The notes beneath the pieces were generated by a model. That model worked only from the letters and a program-made list of their open reading frames with translations, searched no databases and had not been told where the DNA came from. DNA of 64,000 nucleotides from an uncultured Bacillaceae bacterium (GTDB taxonomy: Bacteria; Bacillota; Bacilli; Bacillales; DSM-1321), in assembly GCA_963790055.1 (NCBI GenBank), contig CAWBND010000006.1, forward strand, positions 1,416-65,415. Direction: 5' to 3'. How positions within the stretch are numbered: the stretch's first letter is position 1; every line of letters starts with the position of its first letter. Of the stretch, positions 20,440 through 49,168 are shown piece after piece. The translations under genes and the position numbers were made by a program.

Positions 20440-21057
20440 TCATTGTTTAAAAGGAACCAACCTCATCAAAAATCGGTGTCTCTCCTTTAACGAATGTTTA
20501 TATATGTCATTAATAGCCTCTTTATATAACTCTCTTTTTTCTTCTTTCGATAACGGACTGTTTTTAATCGTCATCCTTGCTTCATACAAAAACTCTAAAT
20601 ATTCTTCGTATGAATCATCATATTGTTCTTCTAAATCATCACGGATTTTTTTAGCTAACATTGGGCTTGCTCCACCTGTTGCTACACTGATTAATAATCT
20701 GCCACGATGGAGCGATGCTGGAATGTGAAAATTACCTTGTTCTGAATTCGTAATCACATTTACAAGCTTCGTATCTTTTGTATGTTCATAGATTCTTTGA
20801 TTTACTTCTGCAGAATCAGTAGCGGCAATGATAAGAAAGGCACCCTGAAGATCTTCGTAGTTGACTTCCTTTTTGCGAACATCAATTTTCCCGTCCCTAT
20901 ACAACTCCTCAATCTGGGGTATAATGACTGGACTAATAACGGTAACCAATGCTCTTGCTTGAAGAAGTGGACCTATTTTAAAGAACGCAATCCTTCCACC
21001 ACCGACCACCACACATCGTTTATCTTCTATTTTAAGAGTAACAGGGTACATAAACAC
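20440..21057 (-). CDS. sirC: Precorrin-2 dehydrogenase
   Basis: VVGGGRIA, ISVATGGASP. Confidence 0.88.
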   Translation of the reverse strand: MFMYPVTLKIEDKRCVVVGGGRIAFFKIGPLLQARALVTVISPVIIPQIEELYRDGKIDVRKKEVNYEDLQGAFLIIAATDSAEVNQRIYEHTKDTKLVNVITNSEQGNFHIPASLHRGRLLISVATGGASPMLAKKIRDDLEEQYDDSYEEYLEFLYEARMTIKNSPLSKEEKRELYKEAINDIYKHSLKERHRFLMRLVPFKQ

Positions 21058-21070
21058 CTTGCTCCTTTCC

Positions 21071-21235
21071 TTAGTTGATTAACTCAACATTAGGTTTAGC
21101 GTAGTTTAACAGTTCTTTATTTACTAAGCGATCATACAAAATAACATCCGCTTGCTCAATACATCTTAATCCTTTTACGGTGATTAGTTTGGGGTCCCCT
21201 GGTCCTGCACCGACTAAATACACTTTTCCCATCAT
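21071..21235 (-). pseudogene. cobA: Truncated uroporphyrinogen-III C-methyltransferase (54 aa)
   Basis: [39 protein letters not shown]..., then a stop just before the sirC RBS. Confidence 0.88.
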
Positions 21236-21256
21236 AATTTTTCACCTCTTTTCTTC

Positions 21257-22099
21257 TTAACTCACTCTTGTTGTATGCTCGCTTTCACTTTTGATAAGAG
21301 CTTTTTTCTCTTCTCTTCGATGCGTTACATATAAGGCAAGACCGGTAAATAGTAATCCACCAAAAAGATTCCCAAGCAGCACTGGAATTTGATTCCATAA
21401 CCACCAATCCGCTACTGTAATATCTGCACCAAGCATCATTCCTGCAGGGATGACAAACATATTTACCACCGCATGTTCAAACCCTTGTGCAAAAAACATT
21501 AAAATCGGCAGCCACATCGCAACAATCTTCCCTAATGTGGATATTGAGGTCATCGCCATAACAGCACCCAGAGCGACCATCCAGTTACAAAGAATACCTT
21601 TTACAAAAGCAATAAATAATCCACTAGTACCTAATGCCGAATAGGCTAACGTTTTTGCTTCTGCCACATTGACAAGCTTTTGAGCAACCGCATGATCAGA
21701 TACGGATATGTTCCCTAAATGGGTAGCGGCAATCACATACAATGCTGCATAAAAAGAAGCACCGATTACATGACCCAGAATAACCCAGAACCAGTTCGAC
21801 AACATTTCCTGCCATGTTGCCTTCTTCGCTAAAACGGCTAACGGTACGAGAGCAAAATTACCTGTAACAAGTTCTAAACCAAGAAGAATAATGATGACAA
21901 AACCAGCAGGGAAAACAAGCGCACCTAAAATCCCCATTTGTGATTGTGTTTCAGCCGTAAATGCTAAGGTAGTACCAAAGCCAAGAAGAGCTCCAGCTAA
22001 TCCGCCTCTAATTAATAAATCCCAAATCGAGAGTTTCACTTTTGCAGCGCCTGCCCCGACCATATTTTCTACAACTTGTTCCGGATTCACGTATGACAT
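21257..22099 (-). CDS. Formate/nitrite transporter (NirC-like)
   Basis: ELVTGN, CNWMV, GFEHAVVNM. Confidence 0.92.
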   Translation of the reverse strand: MSYVNPEQVVENMVGAGAAKVKLSIWDLLIRGGLAGALLGFGTTLAFTAETQSQMGILGALVFPAGFVIIILLGLELVTGNFALVPLAVLAKKATWQEMLSNWFWVILGHVIGASFYAALYVIAATHLGNISVSDHAVAQKLVNVAEAKTLAYSALGTSGLFIAFVKGILCNWMVALGAVMAMTSISTLGKIVAMWLPILMFFAQGFEHAVVNMFVIPAGMMLGADITVADWWLWNQIPVLLGNLFGGLLFTGLALYVTHRREEKKALIKSESEHTTRVS

Positions 22100-22410
22100 C
22101 GGACTCCCCCTCCTACTTTATGTTTTATCCTAATTTTCATATATAAGACTTTAGTACTTTTCGCCCGTTTTCATTGTACCATCTTTAACATTTCTTCTAT
22201 ACACCGAATCCCTGCCATACCATTCCCGATTAGCACTATTTTTTGTCCCCCCATCATAAATATCTGCCTTTTCTAGATTCGTATTAGAAGATGCGTTATA
22301 CTGTTTTTAAGCTGTTCATGAAATACGTGAGAGAATCAAATTTTTCTCCATACTCAGTACGTCACGTTATAAAAACAGCGTATTTTAGTTATCGGTAGGA
22401 GTTGACACAT

Positions 22411-23241
22411 TTGAAAAAATTAACAGGTAAACGTATCGCCCTTGTTGCCTCACGTAAAACAGAGGAGCAAAGTACCATTGTGAAAAATCTGGGCGGTATT
22501 CCACTGCTCCGCCCTGCACAAGGAACCGTTTTTCTAAATGATTCTAATGTAAAATCAGAGATTACGAGGATCTTAGAAGGACATTTTGATTGGTTAATTG
22601 TCACTACAGGGGTTGGGACGGAACGGCTCGTGAAGATCGCACGGGAAATGGGGCAGGAAGAGGCATTTCTTACATCTTTAAAAGGGATGAAAATTGCGGC
22701 TCGTGGTTATAAAACCGTAAATATGCTTAGAAAACTCGACCTAACACCAGTCGTTCGTGATGATGATGGTAGTACGGCCGGTTTAGTAAGGGAATTGTCT
22801 CCTTATAATTTTAAAGGATTGCGCGTGGCGCTTCAGCTTCATGGTGATCCTGCACCAAAGCTAGTTCAATGGTTACAGCAGCAGGAAGCTGATTTTCACG
22901 AAATCCTTCCATATCAACATATTCCACCTGAGTCGGAAGTTCTAGAACAGCTTATTACAGAAATACTAGAAGGACAAATCGATGCCGTAAGTTTTACAAG
23001 TACTCCTCAAGTTCGTTTTTTATTTTCCTATGCGGAAGAAATAGGTGTCAAGGATAAAGTGCTAGATGCTTTTTCAAAAGATGCAGTAGCCTTGTCGGTA
23101 GGAAAAGTAACTGGGCAAGCTTTACGAGAGGAAGGCGTGGAGCGAATTGTCATGCCTCAGGATGAACGAATGGGTAGCGCGCTGATGGCGTTAGCCCAGT
23201 ATTATGACGACAAAGAAGATAAAATACAAGAAACTAGATGA
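22411..23241 (+). CDS. Uroporphyrinogen-III synthase-like protein (HemD family)
   Basis: TTGVG, ARGYKT, FTSTPQV; tetrapyrrole gene context. Confidence 0.8.
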   Translation: MKKLTGKRIALVASRKTEEQSTIVKNLGGIPLLRPAQGTVFLNDSNVKSEITRILEGHFDWLIVTTGVGTERLVKIAREMGQEEAFLTSLKGMKIAARGYKTVNMLRKLDLTPVVRDDDGSTAGLVRELSPYNFKGLRVALQLHGDPAPKLVQWLQQQEADFHEILPYQHIPPESEVLEQLITEILEGQIDAVSFTSTPQVRFLFSYAEEIGVKDKVLDAFSKDAVALSVGKVTGQALREEGVERIVMPQDERMGSALMALAQYYDDKEDKIQETR

Positions 23242-23505
23242 TCCAAAAAATCTCCATTTTCAGGCATATACTTGCTTTGAGTACATGCCTGAAGATGAAA
23301 ATGATGGGCTTGTCCCTTTTTCCGAACGGTCATTTCCCCGATACAAATCACCTAACGTTCTATGAATACTTCGCCTTTTCTTCATGACTCAATCATTTCA
23401 TCTCTTTTTCACTAACACTTCCAAAATAATCCTACATTACTTTCAGACAGGTATATAGTATTATAGAATGAGACAGAATTGTGAACTTTAGAAAGGGGGT
23501 ACTAC

Positions 23506-24981
23506 ATGATGGAACAATTACATGCGATTTTTGATTTATTGACCTCCCTCGCTTATTTCTCGATTCCTATTTCTTTATTAGTCTTTTTGAAAAAAAGGAA
23601 GCTCCAAGAGTTTACGTGGGTGTTTATATGTTTTATTCTATTTATCATGCTATGTGGAATTACACACTTAATGCATATCATAGAATATCTTTTTCCAACC
23701 CATTTTATCCATACAATCAATGGAATAGCGAAGGCTTTAACCGCTGCAATATCTGTATTTACAGCCATATTGCTTTGGTTGATTATTCCTAAAGCTTTGC
23801 TCATACCAAGTCCTTCCCAATTGGAGGGAGCAAATCAAATCTTACATAAACGTACGGAAGAAGTTTCTCAAGTAAACCAATTATTAAAGCAAGAGATTAG
23901 GGAACATAAGAATACGACGAATAAAATGCTAGATTTGATTGCGATTGTACAGTCCTCTAATGATGCCATTATTGGCGTTACATTGGATGGAAAGATTTCC
24001 AGTTGGAATTTAGGCGCATCTGAAATTTTTGGATATGCTAGTGAAGAAATTGTCGGGGAATCCTATTTCAAACTCGTTCACTCTGATCAAATAAAGGAAA
24101 TGAAACTAGTCTTTATGGACGTTAAAGAGGGACGAAGAGTATCACATCGTGAAATAAAACATCTCCTCAAGAATGGCACTGTCATTGAGGGCTCACTTAC
24201 GATATCCTCTATCAGATGTACAGAAGATGAACGAGAAATTATTGGAACATCTATCATCCTTCGTGATATCACAGAAACGAAGCAACTCCAAGATGAGATG
24301 AAGAAGCTTGGTGAATTAAAGACAGTAAGTCAAATGGCAGCTAGTATATCCCATGAGGTCAGAAATCCGCTTACTGTAGTAAAGGGATTTAATCAATTAC
24401 TAAGAAATCCTGATCTTACAGAGGAACAAAAGAACCTATATATCCAGTTAAGTTTAGAAGAATTGAATCGAGCAGAAAGTATTATCACGGATTATCTCAC
24501 ATTTGCCAAACCCTCCGTTGAATATTTAGAAAAATTAGAATTAAGTAAAGAGCTTGACTACATTGTACACGTATTAAATCCATATGCCACCATGAGAAAT
24601 ACCGTCATTCAAGTAGAAAAAGAAGATGGTCCTCTTCATATTTTTGGAGAAAGCAGAGAACTTCGTCAATCCCTCTTAAATATTATGAAAAATGGCATTG
24701 AGTCGATGGAACTAGGTGGAACATTAGCCATTCAAGTACAGAAAGTAAAAGAACACGCTGTCATCACTATTAAAGATACAGGAAAAGGTATGTCTAGCGA
24801 ACAAATTGAAAAGTTAGGCACACCGTATTATTCAACTAAGGATAAAGGTACAGGACTCGGAACGATGGTTGCATTTAGTATTATTAAAGCAATGAAAGGC
24901 GAAATTAAAGTTGATAGTAAAATCGGAAAAGGCACCTGTTTTTTCATCTCTATTCCTTTAGTTGACCGCTCTCACACCTAA
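23506..24981 (+). CDS. Sensor histidine kinase: ETR1-type ethylene-binding 3-TM domain, PAS, HisKA and HATPase (sporulation-kinase-like core)
   Basis: DLLTSLAYFSIP...FIMLCGITH...KALTA; SHEVRNPLT H-box; N/G1/F/G2 boxes. Confidence 0.88.
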   Translation: MMEQLHAIFDLLTSLAYFSIPISLLVFLKKRKLQEFTWVFICFILFIMLCGITHLMHIIEYLFPTHFIHTINGIAKALTAAISVFTAILLWLIIPKALLIPSPSQLEGANQILHKRTEEVSQVNQLLKQEIREHKNTTNKMLDLIAIVQSSNDAIIGVTLDGKISSWNLGASEIFGYASEEIVGESYFKLVHSDQIKEMKLVFMDVKEGRRVSHREIKHLLKNGTVIEGSLTISSIRCTEDEREIIGTSIILRDITETKQLQDEMKKLGELKTVSQMAASISHEVRNPLTVVKGFNQLLRNPDLTEEQKNLYIQLSLEELNRAESIITDYLTFAKPSVEYLEKLELSKELDYIVHVLNPYATMRNTVIQVEKEDGPLHIFGESRELRQSLLNIMKNGIESMELGGTLAIQVQKVKEHAVITIKDTGKGMSSEQIEKLGTPYYSTKDKGTGLGTMVAFSIIKAMKGEIKVDSKIGKGTCFFISIPLVDRSHT

Positions 24982-24991
24982 GGTTCAAAAA

Positions 24992-25022
24992 ATTAGACGA
25001 GAGACTAGTTCTCTCGTCTAAT
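24992..25022. terminator. Bidirectional terminator
   Basis: TTAGACGAGAGA...TCTCTCGTCTAA between convergent genes. Confidence 0.7.
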
Positions 25023-25025
25023 GTC

Positions 25026-26435
<1,410 letters not shown>

Positions 26436-47392: not shown

Positions 47393-49168
47393 TTATGCAA
47401 TATCAGCTGGAAGTAAAATATTAAAAGTTGTCCCTTTATTCACTTCACTTTCAACAACAATACGCCCTTTATGTCCTTCAATAATTTTAAAACTAACCAT
47501 TAATCCTAAACCGTTTCCCGTTTTCTTTGTTGTATAGAAAGGTTCACCTAACTTTTTTAAGCGTTCAGGTGGAATACCGACACCAGTATCTTCGATAGAA
47601 ATTTGTACTTCACCTTCTTTTAATTCGATGCTTACCATGATCTTTCCACCACTTGGCATAGCTTCCATACCATTTTTCACAAAATTCAAGAATACTTGTT
47701 TCAAACGGTTTTCATCACAACGCACAAGAATCGAGTCGTGAGCACTCTCAAAATAAAAAGTGACATTTTTTTTTCGTGCATCAAACTCCATAAGCGATAA
47801 TACATTTCGAATAATCGGAATAATATTTTTCGTTTCTAATTGAACAGACTGTGGCTTGGCTAAAACCAAAAATTCCTCAACAATTTGATTTACCCGATCA
47901 ATTTCATCTAGAATGATTTCAAAAAATTCGATACGATTTGAATCTTTTTCTTCCGAATGTAAAAATTCTGTATATCCCTTCATCGATGTAAGTGGATTAC
48001 GAATCTCATGAGCTACACCTGCTGCTAACTGACCTACAGCGGCTAATTTATCTTGTTGATGCAGCATTTCTTCCGCTTTCTTACGGCTAGTTATATCTGT
48101 TCGAATCGAAATATATTGATAGGGTTTTCCGTTTTTCATAAATGGAACAATCGTTGTCGCTACCCAATACAATTCTCCCAATTTATCGCGATTACAGATT
48201 TCCCCGCTCCACGTTTTACCTTCCTTAATCGTTTTCCAAAGATCACCGAAAAATTCCTTTGAATGATACCCTGAATTAATGATGGAGTGATTTTGTCCAA
48301 GTAATTCCTCTTTGCTATACTTTGAAATCTCAATAAATTTATCATTTGCATAAGTAATAATCCCTCGTGGGTCAGTTATAGCCACAATCGATGACTGATC
48401 TAATGCAAATCGGATATCTCTTACATAATTATCACTGTTAGCTAGTTTTCGGCTAATGATGATACTTGAAATAAGTAAACCGAATACAAGCAAAATAGAA
48501 ACAAAAAACAGCAAATACGCTAGAAAGGACGTATTTTTTACAAGTACATACTGATTACCTACTGCAGAATCAACGGGAAAAGTCCATCGCAATAAATATT
48601 GTCCTTGAATAATCGCCCCTGTCATCATAAAAGTGCTTACAATTTTTAAAAAGTGGGCATTTCCTTTATGGAACCGACTTGGATAAAATAAAATAATAAG
48701 CGTCAAAATAAACATGCAAAGAATCATAACAAAAGACACAAAAATAAGAGATGAATTAACATTCCATTCATCGTGCACAGGATACAAACTAATTATATAG
48801 TTAGCAAACAATGCTATTGTTAGCCAAACACTAGCATACAATATATGAAAGAAATTCAGCACGTTTTTCATTAAATTAAAGAAAGCGATTGCTATACAGG
48901 CTATATCTATCGCCAAAGTCAAAATAATAGTAGAAAAGTCTAGTAAATCAATACGATACCCCACAAATACTACACTATTAATAAAGTTCAAAATCCAAAA
49001 AGCAATTCCTAACACACAACTACTTCCGACAAATAAAAATCGTTTTCGTTGATTGGTCTTTGCCCGCATTCTCATAAACAGATAAATTGCTGCATAAGAA
49101 GCAATGAACGTTACAATAATTGAAATGAATAATACAACTTTATTAGATGAAAACATACTGACTTCCAC
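47393..49168 (-). CDS. Sensor histidine kinase: multi-TM (MHYT-like, degenerate) plus PAS, HisKA and HATPase
   Basis: Several TMs, PAS/PAC, AHEIRNPLT, G boxes. Confidence 0.88.
   Translation of the reverse strand: MEVSMFSSNKVVLFISIIVTFIASYAAIYLFMRMRAKTNQRKRFLFVGSSCVLGIAFWILNFINSVVFVGYRIDLLDFSTIILTLAIDIACIAIAFFNLMKNVLNFFHILYASVWLTIALFANYIISLYPVHDEWNVNSSLIFVSFVMILCMFILTLIILFYPSRFHKGNAHFLKIVSTFMMTGAIIQGQYLLRWTFPVDSAVGNQYVLVKNTSFLAYLLFFVSILLVFGLLISSIIISRKLANSDNYVRDIRFALDQSSIVAITDPRGIITYANDKFIEISKYSKEELLGQNHSIINSGYHSKEFFGDLWKTIKEGKTWSGEICNRDKLGELYWVATTIVPFMKNGKPYQYISIRTDITSRKKAEEMLHQQDKLAAVGQLAAGVAHEIRNPLTSMKGYTEFLHSEEKDSNRIEFFEIILDEIDRVNQIVEEFLVLAKPQSVQLETKNIIPIIRNVLSLMEFDARKKNVTFYFESAHDSILVRCDENRLKQVFLNFVKNGMEAMPSGGKIMVSIELKEGEVQISIEDTGVGIPPERLKKLGEPFYTTKKTGNGLGLMVSFKIIEGHKGRIVVESEVNKGTTFNILLPADIA

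What the first reader, a model, noticed from the sequence alone, without database searches (positions are those of the whole stretch)
23506..24981. Plant ethylene-receptor (ETR1) binding domain fused to a sporulation-type histidine kinase
Seen: D10, Y17, I20, P21, I47, C50 and H54 (plus K76, T79) align ungapped, at a constant offset of 15, to Arabidopsis ETR1 D25, Y32, I35, P36, I62, C65, H69 (K91, T94). Known: these ETR1 residues are required for Cu(I)/ethylene binding, and bacterial examples are described mainly from cyanobacteria and Proteobacteria. The kinase core (SHEVRNPLT, no adjacent response regulator) resembles Bacillus KinA-E orphans that feed Spo0F/Spo0A. Inference: a Bacillaceae sensor that could couple a plant hormone or other small volatile to sporulation or biofilm decisions.
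Basis: partly seen in the sequence, partly recalled or inferred. Interest (0 to 1): 0.82.

Follow-up and report, generated by a model that had tools for sequence, protein, structure and literature searches.

The report
Ethylene-receptor sensor on orphan sporulation-type kinase
A spore-forming soil-type Bacillus relative carries a membrane sensor kinase whose input is a true relative of the copper-containing ethylene-binding domain of plant ethylene receptors and whose output resembles the kinases that start sporulation; the receptor family is already known in bacteria, but this wiring is rare and untested.

Summary
ORF 23506-24981 (+) encodes a 491-aa protein. It has an ETR1_N ethylene-binding domain (Pfam PF25487, 97.8 bits against a cut-off of 27), a long helix, one PAS domain, HisKA and HATPase_c. 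Each is also near-invariant in 230 other family members.

The kinase core is closest to sporulation kinase B: 205 bits to Geobacillus KinB (PDB 3d36), against 110 bits for the next chain. It is 55-63% identical to 5TMR-LYT KinB-type kinases of Bacillaceae. No receiver domain lies within 22 kb, nor within about 9 kb in three other genomes. Spo0F, a Spo0B-like protein and Spo0A are encoded elsewhere in the genome.

The domain is rare in Bacillota: about 1% of sampled Bacilli species, and 0 of 400 other genomes in a phylum-wide sample. The Bacillaceae domains form one clade with two outputs, PAS-kinase (this gene) and GGDEF-EAL (Peribacillus asahii, Bacillus ectoiniformans).

The family and the EBD-PAS-kinase layout are already known (AzoEtr1, SynEtr1). 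This is therefore a new variant, not a new kind. Ethylene binding and transfer to Spo0F are inferences. This scan has flagged ethylene-binding-domain proteins in at least 87 other genomes, none with sporulation wiring.

The parts
23506..24981 (+). Whole gene: EBD-PAS-HisKA-HATPase_c sensor kinase, 491 aa
   Evidence: ORF list and translation; Pfam architecture; AlphaFold2 model with mean pLDDT 79
23492..23499 (+). Shine-Dalgarno-like AAAGGGGG, 6 nt before the ATG
   Evidence: Read directly from the sequence
23442..23469 (+). Promoter-like site TTCAGA-16-TAGAAT. The AGAAT and a following TTGTGAACTT are also found upstream of the G018 orthologue
   Evidence: Scan result, no better than shuffles; upstream alignment. 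Weak evidence; the sigma factor is not assigned
23515..23799 (+). Ethylene-binding domain (ETR1_N), residues 4-98, with three membrane helices at 3-30, 34-62 and 66-98
   Evidence: PF25487, 97.8 bits; helices in the model; dN/dS 0.22-0.24 against G018
23533..23535 (+). Asp10 codon, the counterpart of ETR1 Asp25
   Evidence: D in 222 of 230 family members; role of Asp25 in PMC10266040
23653..23667 (+). C50-G-I-T53-H54, the predicted Cu(I) site (ETR1 C65, T68, H69)
   Evidence: C, G and H in 230 of 230 family members
23731..23733 (+). Lys76 codon, the counterpart of ETR1 Lys91 and partner of Asp10
   Evidence: K in 218 of 230; Asp25-Lys91 coupling in PMC10266040
23812..23955 (+). Long linker helix, residues 103-150, between membrane helix 3 and PAS
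   Evidence: Helix 103-150 in the model; the IPSPS..LE..AN start of the linker is conserved across the family
23941..24282 (+). Cytoplasmic PAS domain, residues 146-259
   Evidence: PF00989 9.6e-15 and PF13426 5.4e-12
24328..24510 (+). HisKA (DHp) domain, residues 275-335; phospho-acceptor His283 at 24352-24354
   Evidence: PF00512 6.8e-15; DHp alignment with the genome's own kinases
24649..24960 (+). HATPase_c catalytic domain, residues 382-485
   Evidence: PF02518 1.4e-20; aligned to KinB 3d36
24992..25022 (.). 13-bp hairpin between this gene and the convergent beta-eliminating-lyase gene (25026-26429, minus strand)
   Evidence: Terminator-like scan, called on the minus strand

Best explanation
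The gene encodes a membrane sensor histidine kinase. Shown: its sensor belongs to the ETR1-type, copper-dependent ethylene-binding domain family. The sensor has three membrane helices, and the Cu(I) ligands Cys50 and His54, Asp10, Lys76 and all residues reported as needed for ethylene binding are intact. Shown: the domain is under purifying selection. Shown: through a long helix and one PAS domain it is joined to a KinB-like DHp/catalytic core. The gene has no partner response regulator nearby. The genome encodes Spo0F, a Spo0B-like protein and Spo0A. Inferred: a Cu(I) ion held by Cys50 and His54 binds ethylene or a similar small olefin dissolved in the membrane. Inferred: the Asp10-Lys76 link passes the change to membrane helix 3 and down the linker helix. 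Inferred: this changes autophosphorylation of His283, and the phosphate goes to Spo0F and so into the Spo0A phosphorelay that governs sporulation and biofilm decisions. By analogy with ETR1 and SynEtr1, ethylene would lower kinase output, so the gas would hold cells back from Spo0A activation. The sign of this effect is the least certain step. My estimates for the parts are: true EBD-family sensor kinase about 0.95, binds ethylene about 0.6, main partner is Spo0F about 0.55.
For: Domain identity: PF25487 at 97.8 bits. All nine named residues sit in columns that are 95-100% conserved in 230 relatives. The protein-atlas feature search also places the domain in ETR1_N clusters. Three helices are followed by one long helix in the model. 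Selection: dN/dS of the sensor is 0.22-0.24 at dS about 0.6, the same range as PAS and the kinase. Kinase type: KinB 3d36 scores 205 bits against 110 bits for ZraS. The nearest database cores are 5TMR-LYT kinases, several labelled sporulation kinase B, at 55-63% identity. In the core tree the EBD kinases sit inside the KinB / dCache / PAS-kinase radiation of Bacilli. The DHp is 57-62% identical to the genome's own KinB-type paralogues and 31-34% identical to the kinases that have a partner regulator next to them. Orphan status: the only receiver domain on the 68-kb contig is more than 22 kb away. No receiver domain lies within about 9 kb in G062, G018 or G131. In this genome 7 of 8 kinases with the HE[IV/F]RNPLT-type H-box have no receiver domain within 5 kb; the eighth carries its own receiver domain. 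The three HEL[RK]TP kinases tested all have an adjacent regulator. Phosphorelay: Spo0F scores 200 bits to B. subtilis Spo0F; Spo0A and a Spo0B-like protein are present. Precedent: AzoEtr1 has the same EBD-PAS-kinase layout, binds ethylene, and loses function in D35A and C75A mutants. Ethylene inhibits ETR1 kinase activity (PMC11819568).
Against: There is no biochemistry for any Bacillota member. The H-box is shared with AtoS and ZraS, which are not sporulation kinases, and the top NCBIfam model is AtoS, far below its cut-off. No B. subtilis KinA-E sequences were available, so placement among proven Spo0F kinases rests on one PDB chain and on source annotations. The Bacillaceae clade differs from other ethylene-binding domains by an invariant extra His57 and a 3-residue loop insertion, which could change metal or ligand chemistry. 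Relatives have lost the sensor yet kept the kinase, and the gene is present in only 3 of 47 species of the genus, counting this genome. The input is therefore dispensable. The genome is only 62% complete, so an unlinked partner regulator other than Spo0F cannot be excluded.
Confidence: 0.5

Rival explanations
1. The domain is a copper or redox sensor, not an olefin sensor. Loading, loss or oxidation of the bound Cu(I) would itself be the signal, tying copper or oxidative stress to kinase output.
For: The strictly invariant residues are the metal ligands Cys and His. The Bacillaceae clade adds His57 and Met56 one turn above His54, plus extra His residues in the outer loop. A copA-like pump lies 3.2 kb from the sister gene in B. 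ectoiniformans.
Against: The residues reported as needed for ethylene binding but not as copper ligands (Y17, I20, P21, I47) are also conserved. Every family member tested so far binds ethylene (PMC11819568, PMC6682694). The genome already has an ordinary copZ-copA pair.
Confidence: 0.15
2. It is a true ethylene-type receptor, but it signals to an unlinked regulator other than Spo0F, or acts mainly as a phosphatase. It would then control motility or biofilm rather than sporulation.
For: The characterised bacterial receptors control biofilm, phototaxis and colonisation (PMC11819568). The sister proteins in Bacillaceae have a c-di-GMP output. Other single-domain receiver proteins exist in the genome. 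The genome is 62% complete.
Against: The DHp and catalytic core are closest to KinB. Kinases of this H-box class are almost all orphans in this genome, which is the pattern of phosphorelay kinases.
Confidence: 0.25
3. The ethylene-binding domain now serves only as a membrane anchor and dimerisation module. The real signal would enter through the PAS domain.
For: Relatives that deleted membrane helices 2-3, or the whole sensor plus PAS, still keep an intact kinase.
Against: A mere anchor would not keep every ligand and copper residue. dN/dS of the sensor equals that of the catalytic core, and the pocket columns are invariant in the clade.
Confidence: 0.08

Closest known systems
AzoEtr1 of Azospirillum brasilense (PMC11819568)
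   Same: Same domain order: ethylene-binding domain, PAS, histidine kinase. Similar size (525 aa against 491 aa). The Asp and Cys that are essential in AzoEtr1 (D35, C75) are conserved here.
   Different: AzoEtr1 has a co-transcribed single-domain response regulator, whereas this gene is an orphan. The kinase core here belongs to the KinB-like group of Bacilli. The host is a Gram-positive spore former. The sensor carries clade-specific His57 and a loop insertion.
Arabidopsis ETR1 / ERS1 ethylene-binding domain (Pfam PF25487)
   Same: Three-helix copper-binding sensor. D, Y, I, P, I, C, H, K and T lie at a constant offset of 15 from the ETR1 numbering.
   Different: There is no N-terminal Cys pair for a disulfide-linked dimer (residues 1-9 hold no Cys). 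PAS replaces the GAF domain. There is no receiver domain. Output is through histidine phosphotransfer, not CTR1.
SynEtr1 (slr1212) of Synechocystis
   Same: A bacterial ethylene-binding domain fused to a histidine kinase that signals by phosphotransfer (as summarised in PMC11819568).
   Different: SynEtr1 also carries phytochrome-like light-sensing domains and has dedicated downstream regulators.
Sporulation kinase KinB (Geobacillus stearothermophilus, PDB 3d36; B. subtilis KinB)
   Same: The DHp and catalytic core score 205 bits over residues 270-487. The AASISHE.RNPLT and DYLTFAKP motifs are shared. Both are orphan genes.
   Different: KinB has a 5TMR-LYT membrane sensor and no PAS domain. 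Here the sensor is an ethylene-binding domain plus PAS. The genome keeps a separate KinB-type gene (G000 C8:118191-119456).
EBD-GGDEF-EAL proteins of Peribacillus asahii and Bacillus ectoiniformans (P0272, P0271)
   Same: Sensor of the same Bacillaceae clade, 58-65% identical, sharing His57 and the loop insertion.
   Different: The output is c-di-GMP turnover instead of a kinase. Several members have changed Asp10, Thr53 or Lys76.

Membership tests
ETR1-type ethylene-binding domain (Pfam PF25487) | Profile match above the curated cut-off | tested here: met
   97.8 bits against a cut-off of 27, residues 4-98; 101.8 bits in the six-frame genome search
ETR1-type ethylene-binding domain (Pfam PF25487) | Three membrane helices at the N-terminus | tested here: met
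   Helices 3-30, 34-62 and 66-98 in the AlphaFold2 model
ETR1-type ethylene-binding domain (Pfam PF25487) | Cu(I) ligands Cys and His in helix 2 (ETR1 C65, H69) | tested here: met
   C50 and H54; both columns are 230/230 in the family
ETR1-type ethylene-binding domain (Pfam PF25487) | Remaining residues needed for ethylene binding (ETR1 D25, Y32, I35, P36, I62) and the Asp-Lys pair (D25-K91) | tested here: met
   D10, Y17, I20, P21, I47 and K76 are present, in columns 95-100% conserved. The mapping to ETR1 uses published residue numbers, not a direct alignment
ETR1-type ethylene-binding domain (Pfam PF25487) | Saturable, copper-dependent ethylene binding | not testable with these tools
   Needs a radioligand assay
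Bacterial ethylene-receptor two-component pair (AzoEtr1 / SynEtr1 type) | Cognate response regulator encoded next to the receptor | tested here: not met
   No receiver domain within 22 kb in the window, nor within about 9 kb in G062, G018 and G131
Sporulation phosphorelay kinases (KinA-E type) | DHp and catalytic core closest to a proven sporulation kinase | tested here: met
   KinB 3d36 at 205 bits against 110 bits for the next chain. The core lies within the KinB-type radiation. No B. subtilis KinA-E sequences were available for a tree
Sporulation phosphorelay kinases (KinA-E type) | Orphan gene in a genome that encodes Spo0F, Spo0B and Spo0A | tested here: met
   orphan; Spo0F, Spo0B-like, Spo0A
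Sporulation phosphorelay kinases (KinA-E type) | Phosphotransfer to Spo0F | not testable with these tools
   Needs in vitro phosphotransfer profiling
KinB orthologues proper | 5TMR-LYT membrane sensor (PF07694) | tested here: not met
   There is no PF07694 match. The genome's own KinB-type gene has one

The most novel reading that the evidence does not exclude
This would be a sporulation phosphorelay kinase with a defined and easily delivered ligand: the gas ethylene, sensed through a copper site. A plant or microbial volatile would then directly gate Spo0A activation in a spore former. In addition, the Bacillaceae sensor clade may have evolved its own outer His/Met entrance (Met56, His57, and loop His66 and His69) that loads Cu(I) from outside the cell without a RAN1-like pump.
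Probability: 0.3. Interest if true: 0.8.

Novelty: new variant of a known kind. Interest (0 to 1): 0.55.

Why it matters
What the sporulation kinases of Bacilli sense is a long-standing open question, and few have a defined ligand. A KinB-like orphan kinase whose input is a well-studied sensor would make the link from signal to Spo0A directly testable. That sensor has a known cofactor (Cu(I)), a known ligand (ethylene), known inhibitors (1-MCP, silver) and known loss-of-function mutations. For ethylene biology it extends candidate receptors to Gram-positive spore formers. It also shows one sensor lineage plugged into two outputs, phosphorelay and c-di-GMP, and the c-di-GMP type occurs in named species. 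The natural D10N / Lys76-loss variants and the sensor-deleted relatives offer ready-made comparisons.

Tried and rejected
- The single genome-contig scan was dominated by the kinase-core pattern. It returned only KinB-type and PAS kinases, none covering the sensor. It gave names for kinase relatives but no census of the fusion.
- Lacey and Binder 2016 and Wang et al. 2006 are not held. Carlew et al. 2019/2020 is not in the library. I could not check whether Firmicutes members were already listed there.
- No paper in the library links an ethylene receptor to sporulation or to Peribacillus.
- No tool gave an Arabidopsis ETR1 sequence, so there was no direct pairwise alignment.
- NCBIfam matched no KinB model. 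Its best hits, AtoS and KinD, are far below their cut-offs.
- The sub-threshold PF25487 hits in G015 and G046, which looked like pseudogene remnants, lie antisense inside a conserved 320-aa gene and are spurious.
- The promoter scan was no better than shuffles. I assign no sigma factor and no Spo0A box.
- The neighbours (hemD-like, sirC, formate/nitrite transporter, beta-eliminating lyase) are shared only with the near-identical G062, so I reject a functional operon link.
- The structure search was skipped. The PDB sequence search found no solved ethylene-binding domain, and model coordinates cannot be measured with these tools.

Full report
**1. What is there**

The window holds an ORF at 23506-24981 (+) of 491 aa. 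A Shine-Dalgarno-like AAAGGGGG precedes the ATG by 6 nt. A 264-bp gap lies upstream. Downstream, a convergent gene shares a hairpin with it.

Pfam gives four domains:
- ETR1_N (PF25487), residues 4-98, 97.8 bits against a cut-off of 27, E 4.4e-28.
- PAS, residues 146-259.
- HisKA, residues 275-335.
- HATPase_c, residues 382-485.

An AlphaFold2 model built on 14 orthologues has mean pLDDT 79. It shows three helices at 3-30, 34-62 and 66-98, one long helix at 103-150, a PAS fold, a two-helix DHp at 256-334 and the catalytic domain. The positively charged KKRK loop between helices 1 and 2 fits an N-out, C-in topology. That topology is my inference from the sequence.

**2. The observation**

I aligned the sensor with 230 other family members, taken from a search of 1.84 billion representative proteins. 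The columns read D 222, Y 229, I 229, P 227, I 229, C 230, H 230, K 218 and T 229 of 230.

The offset of 15 reproduces the published ETR1 numbers Asp25, Cys65, Thr68, His69 and Lys91 (PMC10266040, PMC9603746). For Y32, I35, P36 and I62 I rely on my memory of Wang et al. 2006, which is not held. No ETR1 sequence could be obtained from a tool, so the direct alignment was not run.

**3. The kinase half**

Evidence that the core is KinB-like:
- Against the PDB, the core's best match is sporulation kinase B of Geobacillus (3d36), 205 bits over residues 270-487. The next chain, ZraS, scores 110 bits.
- In the 5.8-billion protein collection, the closest cores outside the gene's own clade are 5TMR-LYT kinases of Halalkalibacter, Domibacillus, Peribacillus and others, at 55-63% identity. 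Several are labelled sporulation kinase B by their source.
- A maximum-likelihood tree of 70 cores places the EBD kinases inside this Bacilli radiation of KinB-type, dCache-type and PAS-type kinases. They lie away from most other kinases of the same genome. This was a quick search and support is moderate.
- The DHp shares AASISHEVRNPLT and DYLTFAKP with the genome's own KinB-type genes, at 57-62% identity. Against the kinases that sit next to a regulator, identity is 31-34%.

The H-box alone is not diagnostic. AtoS and ZraS share it, and AtoS is the top NCBIfam model, far below its cut-off.

**4. Orphan status and phosphorelay**

- The only receiver domain on the 68-kb contig is more than 22 kb away.
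- No receiver domain lies within about 9 kb of the orthologue in G062 (syntenic), G018 or G131 (both in different contexts).
- In this genome, 7 of 8 kinases with this type of H-box have no receiver domain within 5 kb; the eighth carries its own receiver domain. The three HEL[RK]TP kinases tested all have an adjacent regulator.
- The genome is 62% complete. It encodes Spo0F (200 bits to B. subtilis Spo0F), Spo0A and a Spo0B-like protein. SpoVS lies 3 kb away in the window.

The host is therefore a spore former with a multi-step phosphorelay. A same-genus genome (G042) encodes a protein 93% identical to one from Peribacillus asahii. The genus is therefore probably Peribacillus; this is an inference.

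**5. Distribution**

Full-length orthologues fall into only about 14 clusters at 90% identity. All come from metagenomes or MAGs where a name exists, for example 'Bacillus bacterium' HHY73647.1.

PF25487 above its cut-off was found in:

| Sample | Genomes with a hit |
|---|---|
| Genus | 4 of 47 |
| GTDB family | 4 of 67 |
| Order | 5 of 401 |
| Class | 4 of 401 |
| Phylum-wide | 1 of 401 (this genome only) |

All counts include this genome. Of the four genus hits, three are the kinase type and one (G042) is the GGDEF-EAL type. These are samples, so the result is 'not found in those searched', not 'absent'.

A tree of the sensors gives one strongly supported Bacillaceae clade (SH-aLRT 100). 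It contains the PAS-kinase type and an EBD-GGDEF-EAL type. The EBD-GGDEF-EAL type is found in Peribacillus asahii, Bacillus ectoiniformans, Bacillus sp. V3B and a Ureibacillus MAG. Other Bacilli sensors (G176, G651, G661) fall elsewhere in the tree, so they are separate lineages. The G176 gene has a receiver-type ORF just upstream. The source of the Bacillaceae clade is unresolved.

**6. Constraint and clade features**

- dN/dS of the sensor is 0.22-0.24 against G018 at dS about 0.6. This equals the values for PAS and the kinase.
- Compared with 230 other sensors, the clade has an invariant His57 where others have E, S, G, A or D. It also has Met56 and a 3-residue insertion in the outer loop with further His residues. 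These could tune copper loading or ligand choice; that is a hypothesis.
- Four orthologues carry Asn at position 10, and three of them have also lost Lys76. This fits the Asp25-Lys91 coupling and the low-affinity D25N form described for ETR1 (PMC10266040, PMC11971883).

**7. Mechanism**

- Shown: family membership, an intact pocket, purifying selection, a KinB-like core, orphan status, and presence of the phosphorelay.
- Inferred: Cu(I) on Cys50 and His54 binds ethylene. Asp10-Lys76 couples the event to helix 3 and the linker helix. Autophosphorylation of His283 changes, and the phosphate goes to Spo0F.
- Direction: by analogy with ETR1 and SynEtr1, ethylene would lower kinase activity (PMC11819568). 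This direction is uncertain.
- Copper supply: an ordinary copZ-copA pair is present.

Rivals are a copper or redox sensor, a different partner regulator, and a mere membrane anchor. Each is listed with its evidence in the rival section.

**8. Comparison and novelty**

The family is large, with 6,052 representative clusters at E up to 0.001. It has its own Pfam model, and the literature reports putative receptors in several bacterial phyla (PMC11819568). AzoEtr1 has the same EBD-PAS-kinase order and is proven to bind ethylene. This scan has noted ethylene-binding-domain proteins in at least 87 other genomes, but none with sporulation wiring.

What is new here:
- the Bacillota host;
- the KinB-like orphan core, which predicts entry into the Spo0A phosphorelay;
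- the Bacillaceae clade with two outputs.

I could not check whether older catalogues (Carlew et al., Lacey and Binder) already list Firmicutes members.

Verdict: a real feature and a new variant of a known kind, of moderate interest (0.55).

Noticed in passing
P0017, P0018; L004:5971-6822 (P0020); P0029: There is a reductive series inside the clade. Two relatives keep only membrane helix 1 of the sensor and have lost the Cys/His helix. 276-283-aa kinases (a Bacillales MAG, Schinkia azotoformans) keep one membrane helix plus the post-sensor linker and run straight into the DHp, with PAS deleted. In the core tree they nest next to P0012 and P0014.
   Followed up: partly
P0003, P0006, P0008 (= G018, L002), P0009: These are natural Asp10-to-Asn variants. 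Three of the four have also lost Lys76 (to I, I and T). The EBD-GGDEF-EAL sisters vary Asp10 (G, E), Thr53 (G) and Lys76 (E, N, M).
   Followed up: partly
L114:14005-16419 (G182 = Bacillus ectoiniformans): A copA-like 805-aa P-type ATPase with a GMTCSAC metal-binding motif lies 3.2 kb downstream of the EBD-GGDEF-EAL gene (L114:9169-10842). This may be coincidence.
   Followed up: no
window 47396-49168 (-): A second orphan PAS histidine kinase (590 aa) with an HEIRNPLT H-box lies in the same window. It is probably another phosphorelay-type kinase.
   Followed up: partly
window 20440-23241: A sirC-like gene and a formate/nitrite transporter lie on the minus strand, and a 279-aa hemD-like gene lies on the plus strand directly upstream of the kinase. 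The arrangement is shared with G062 only.
   Followed up: partly
L088 (G176 C74): A separate Bacilli ethylene-binding-domain lineage appears split into a 185-aa sensor ORF and a 177-aa HATPase ORF, with a receiver-type ORF just upstream. It may be a frameshifted classical two-component receptor.
   Followed up: no
L003 (G015), L086 (G046): Sub-threshold ETR1_N hits with internal stops lie antisense within a conserved gene of about 320 aa. They are spurious, not pseudogenes.
   Followed up: yes
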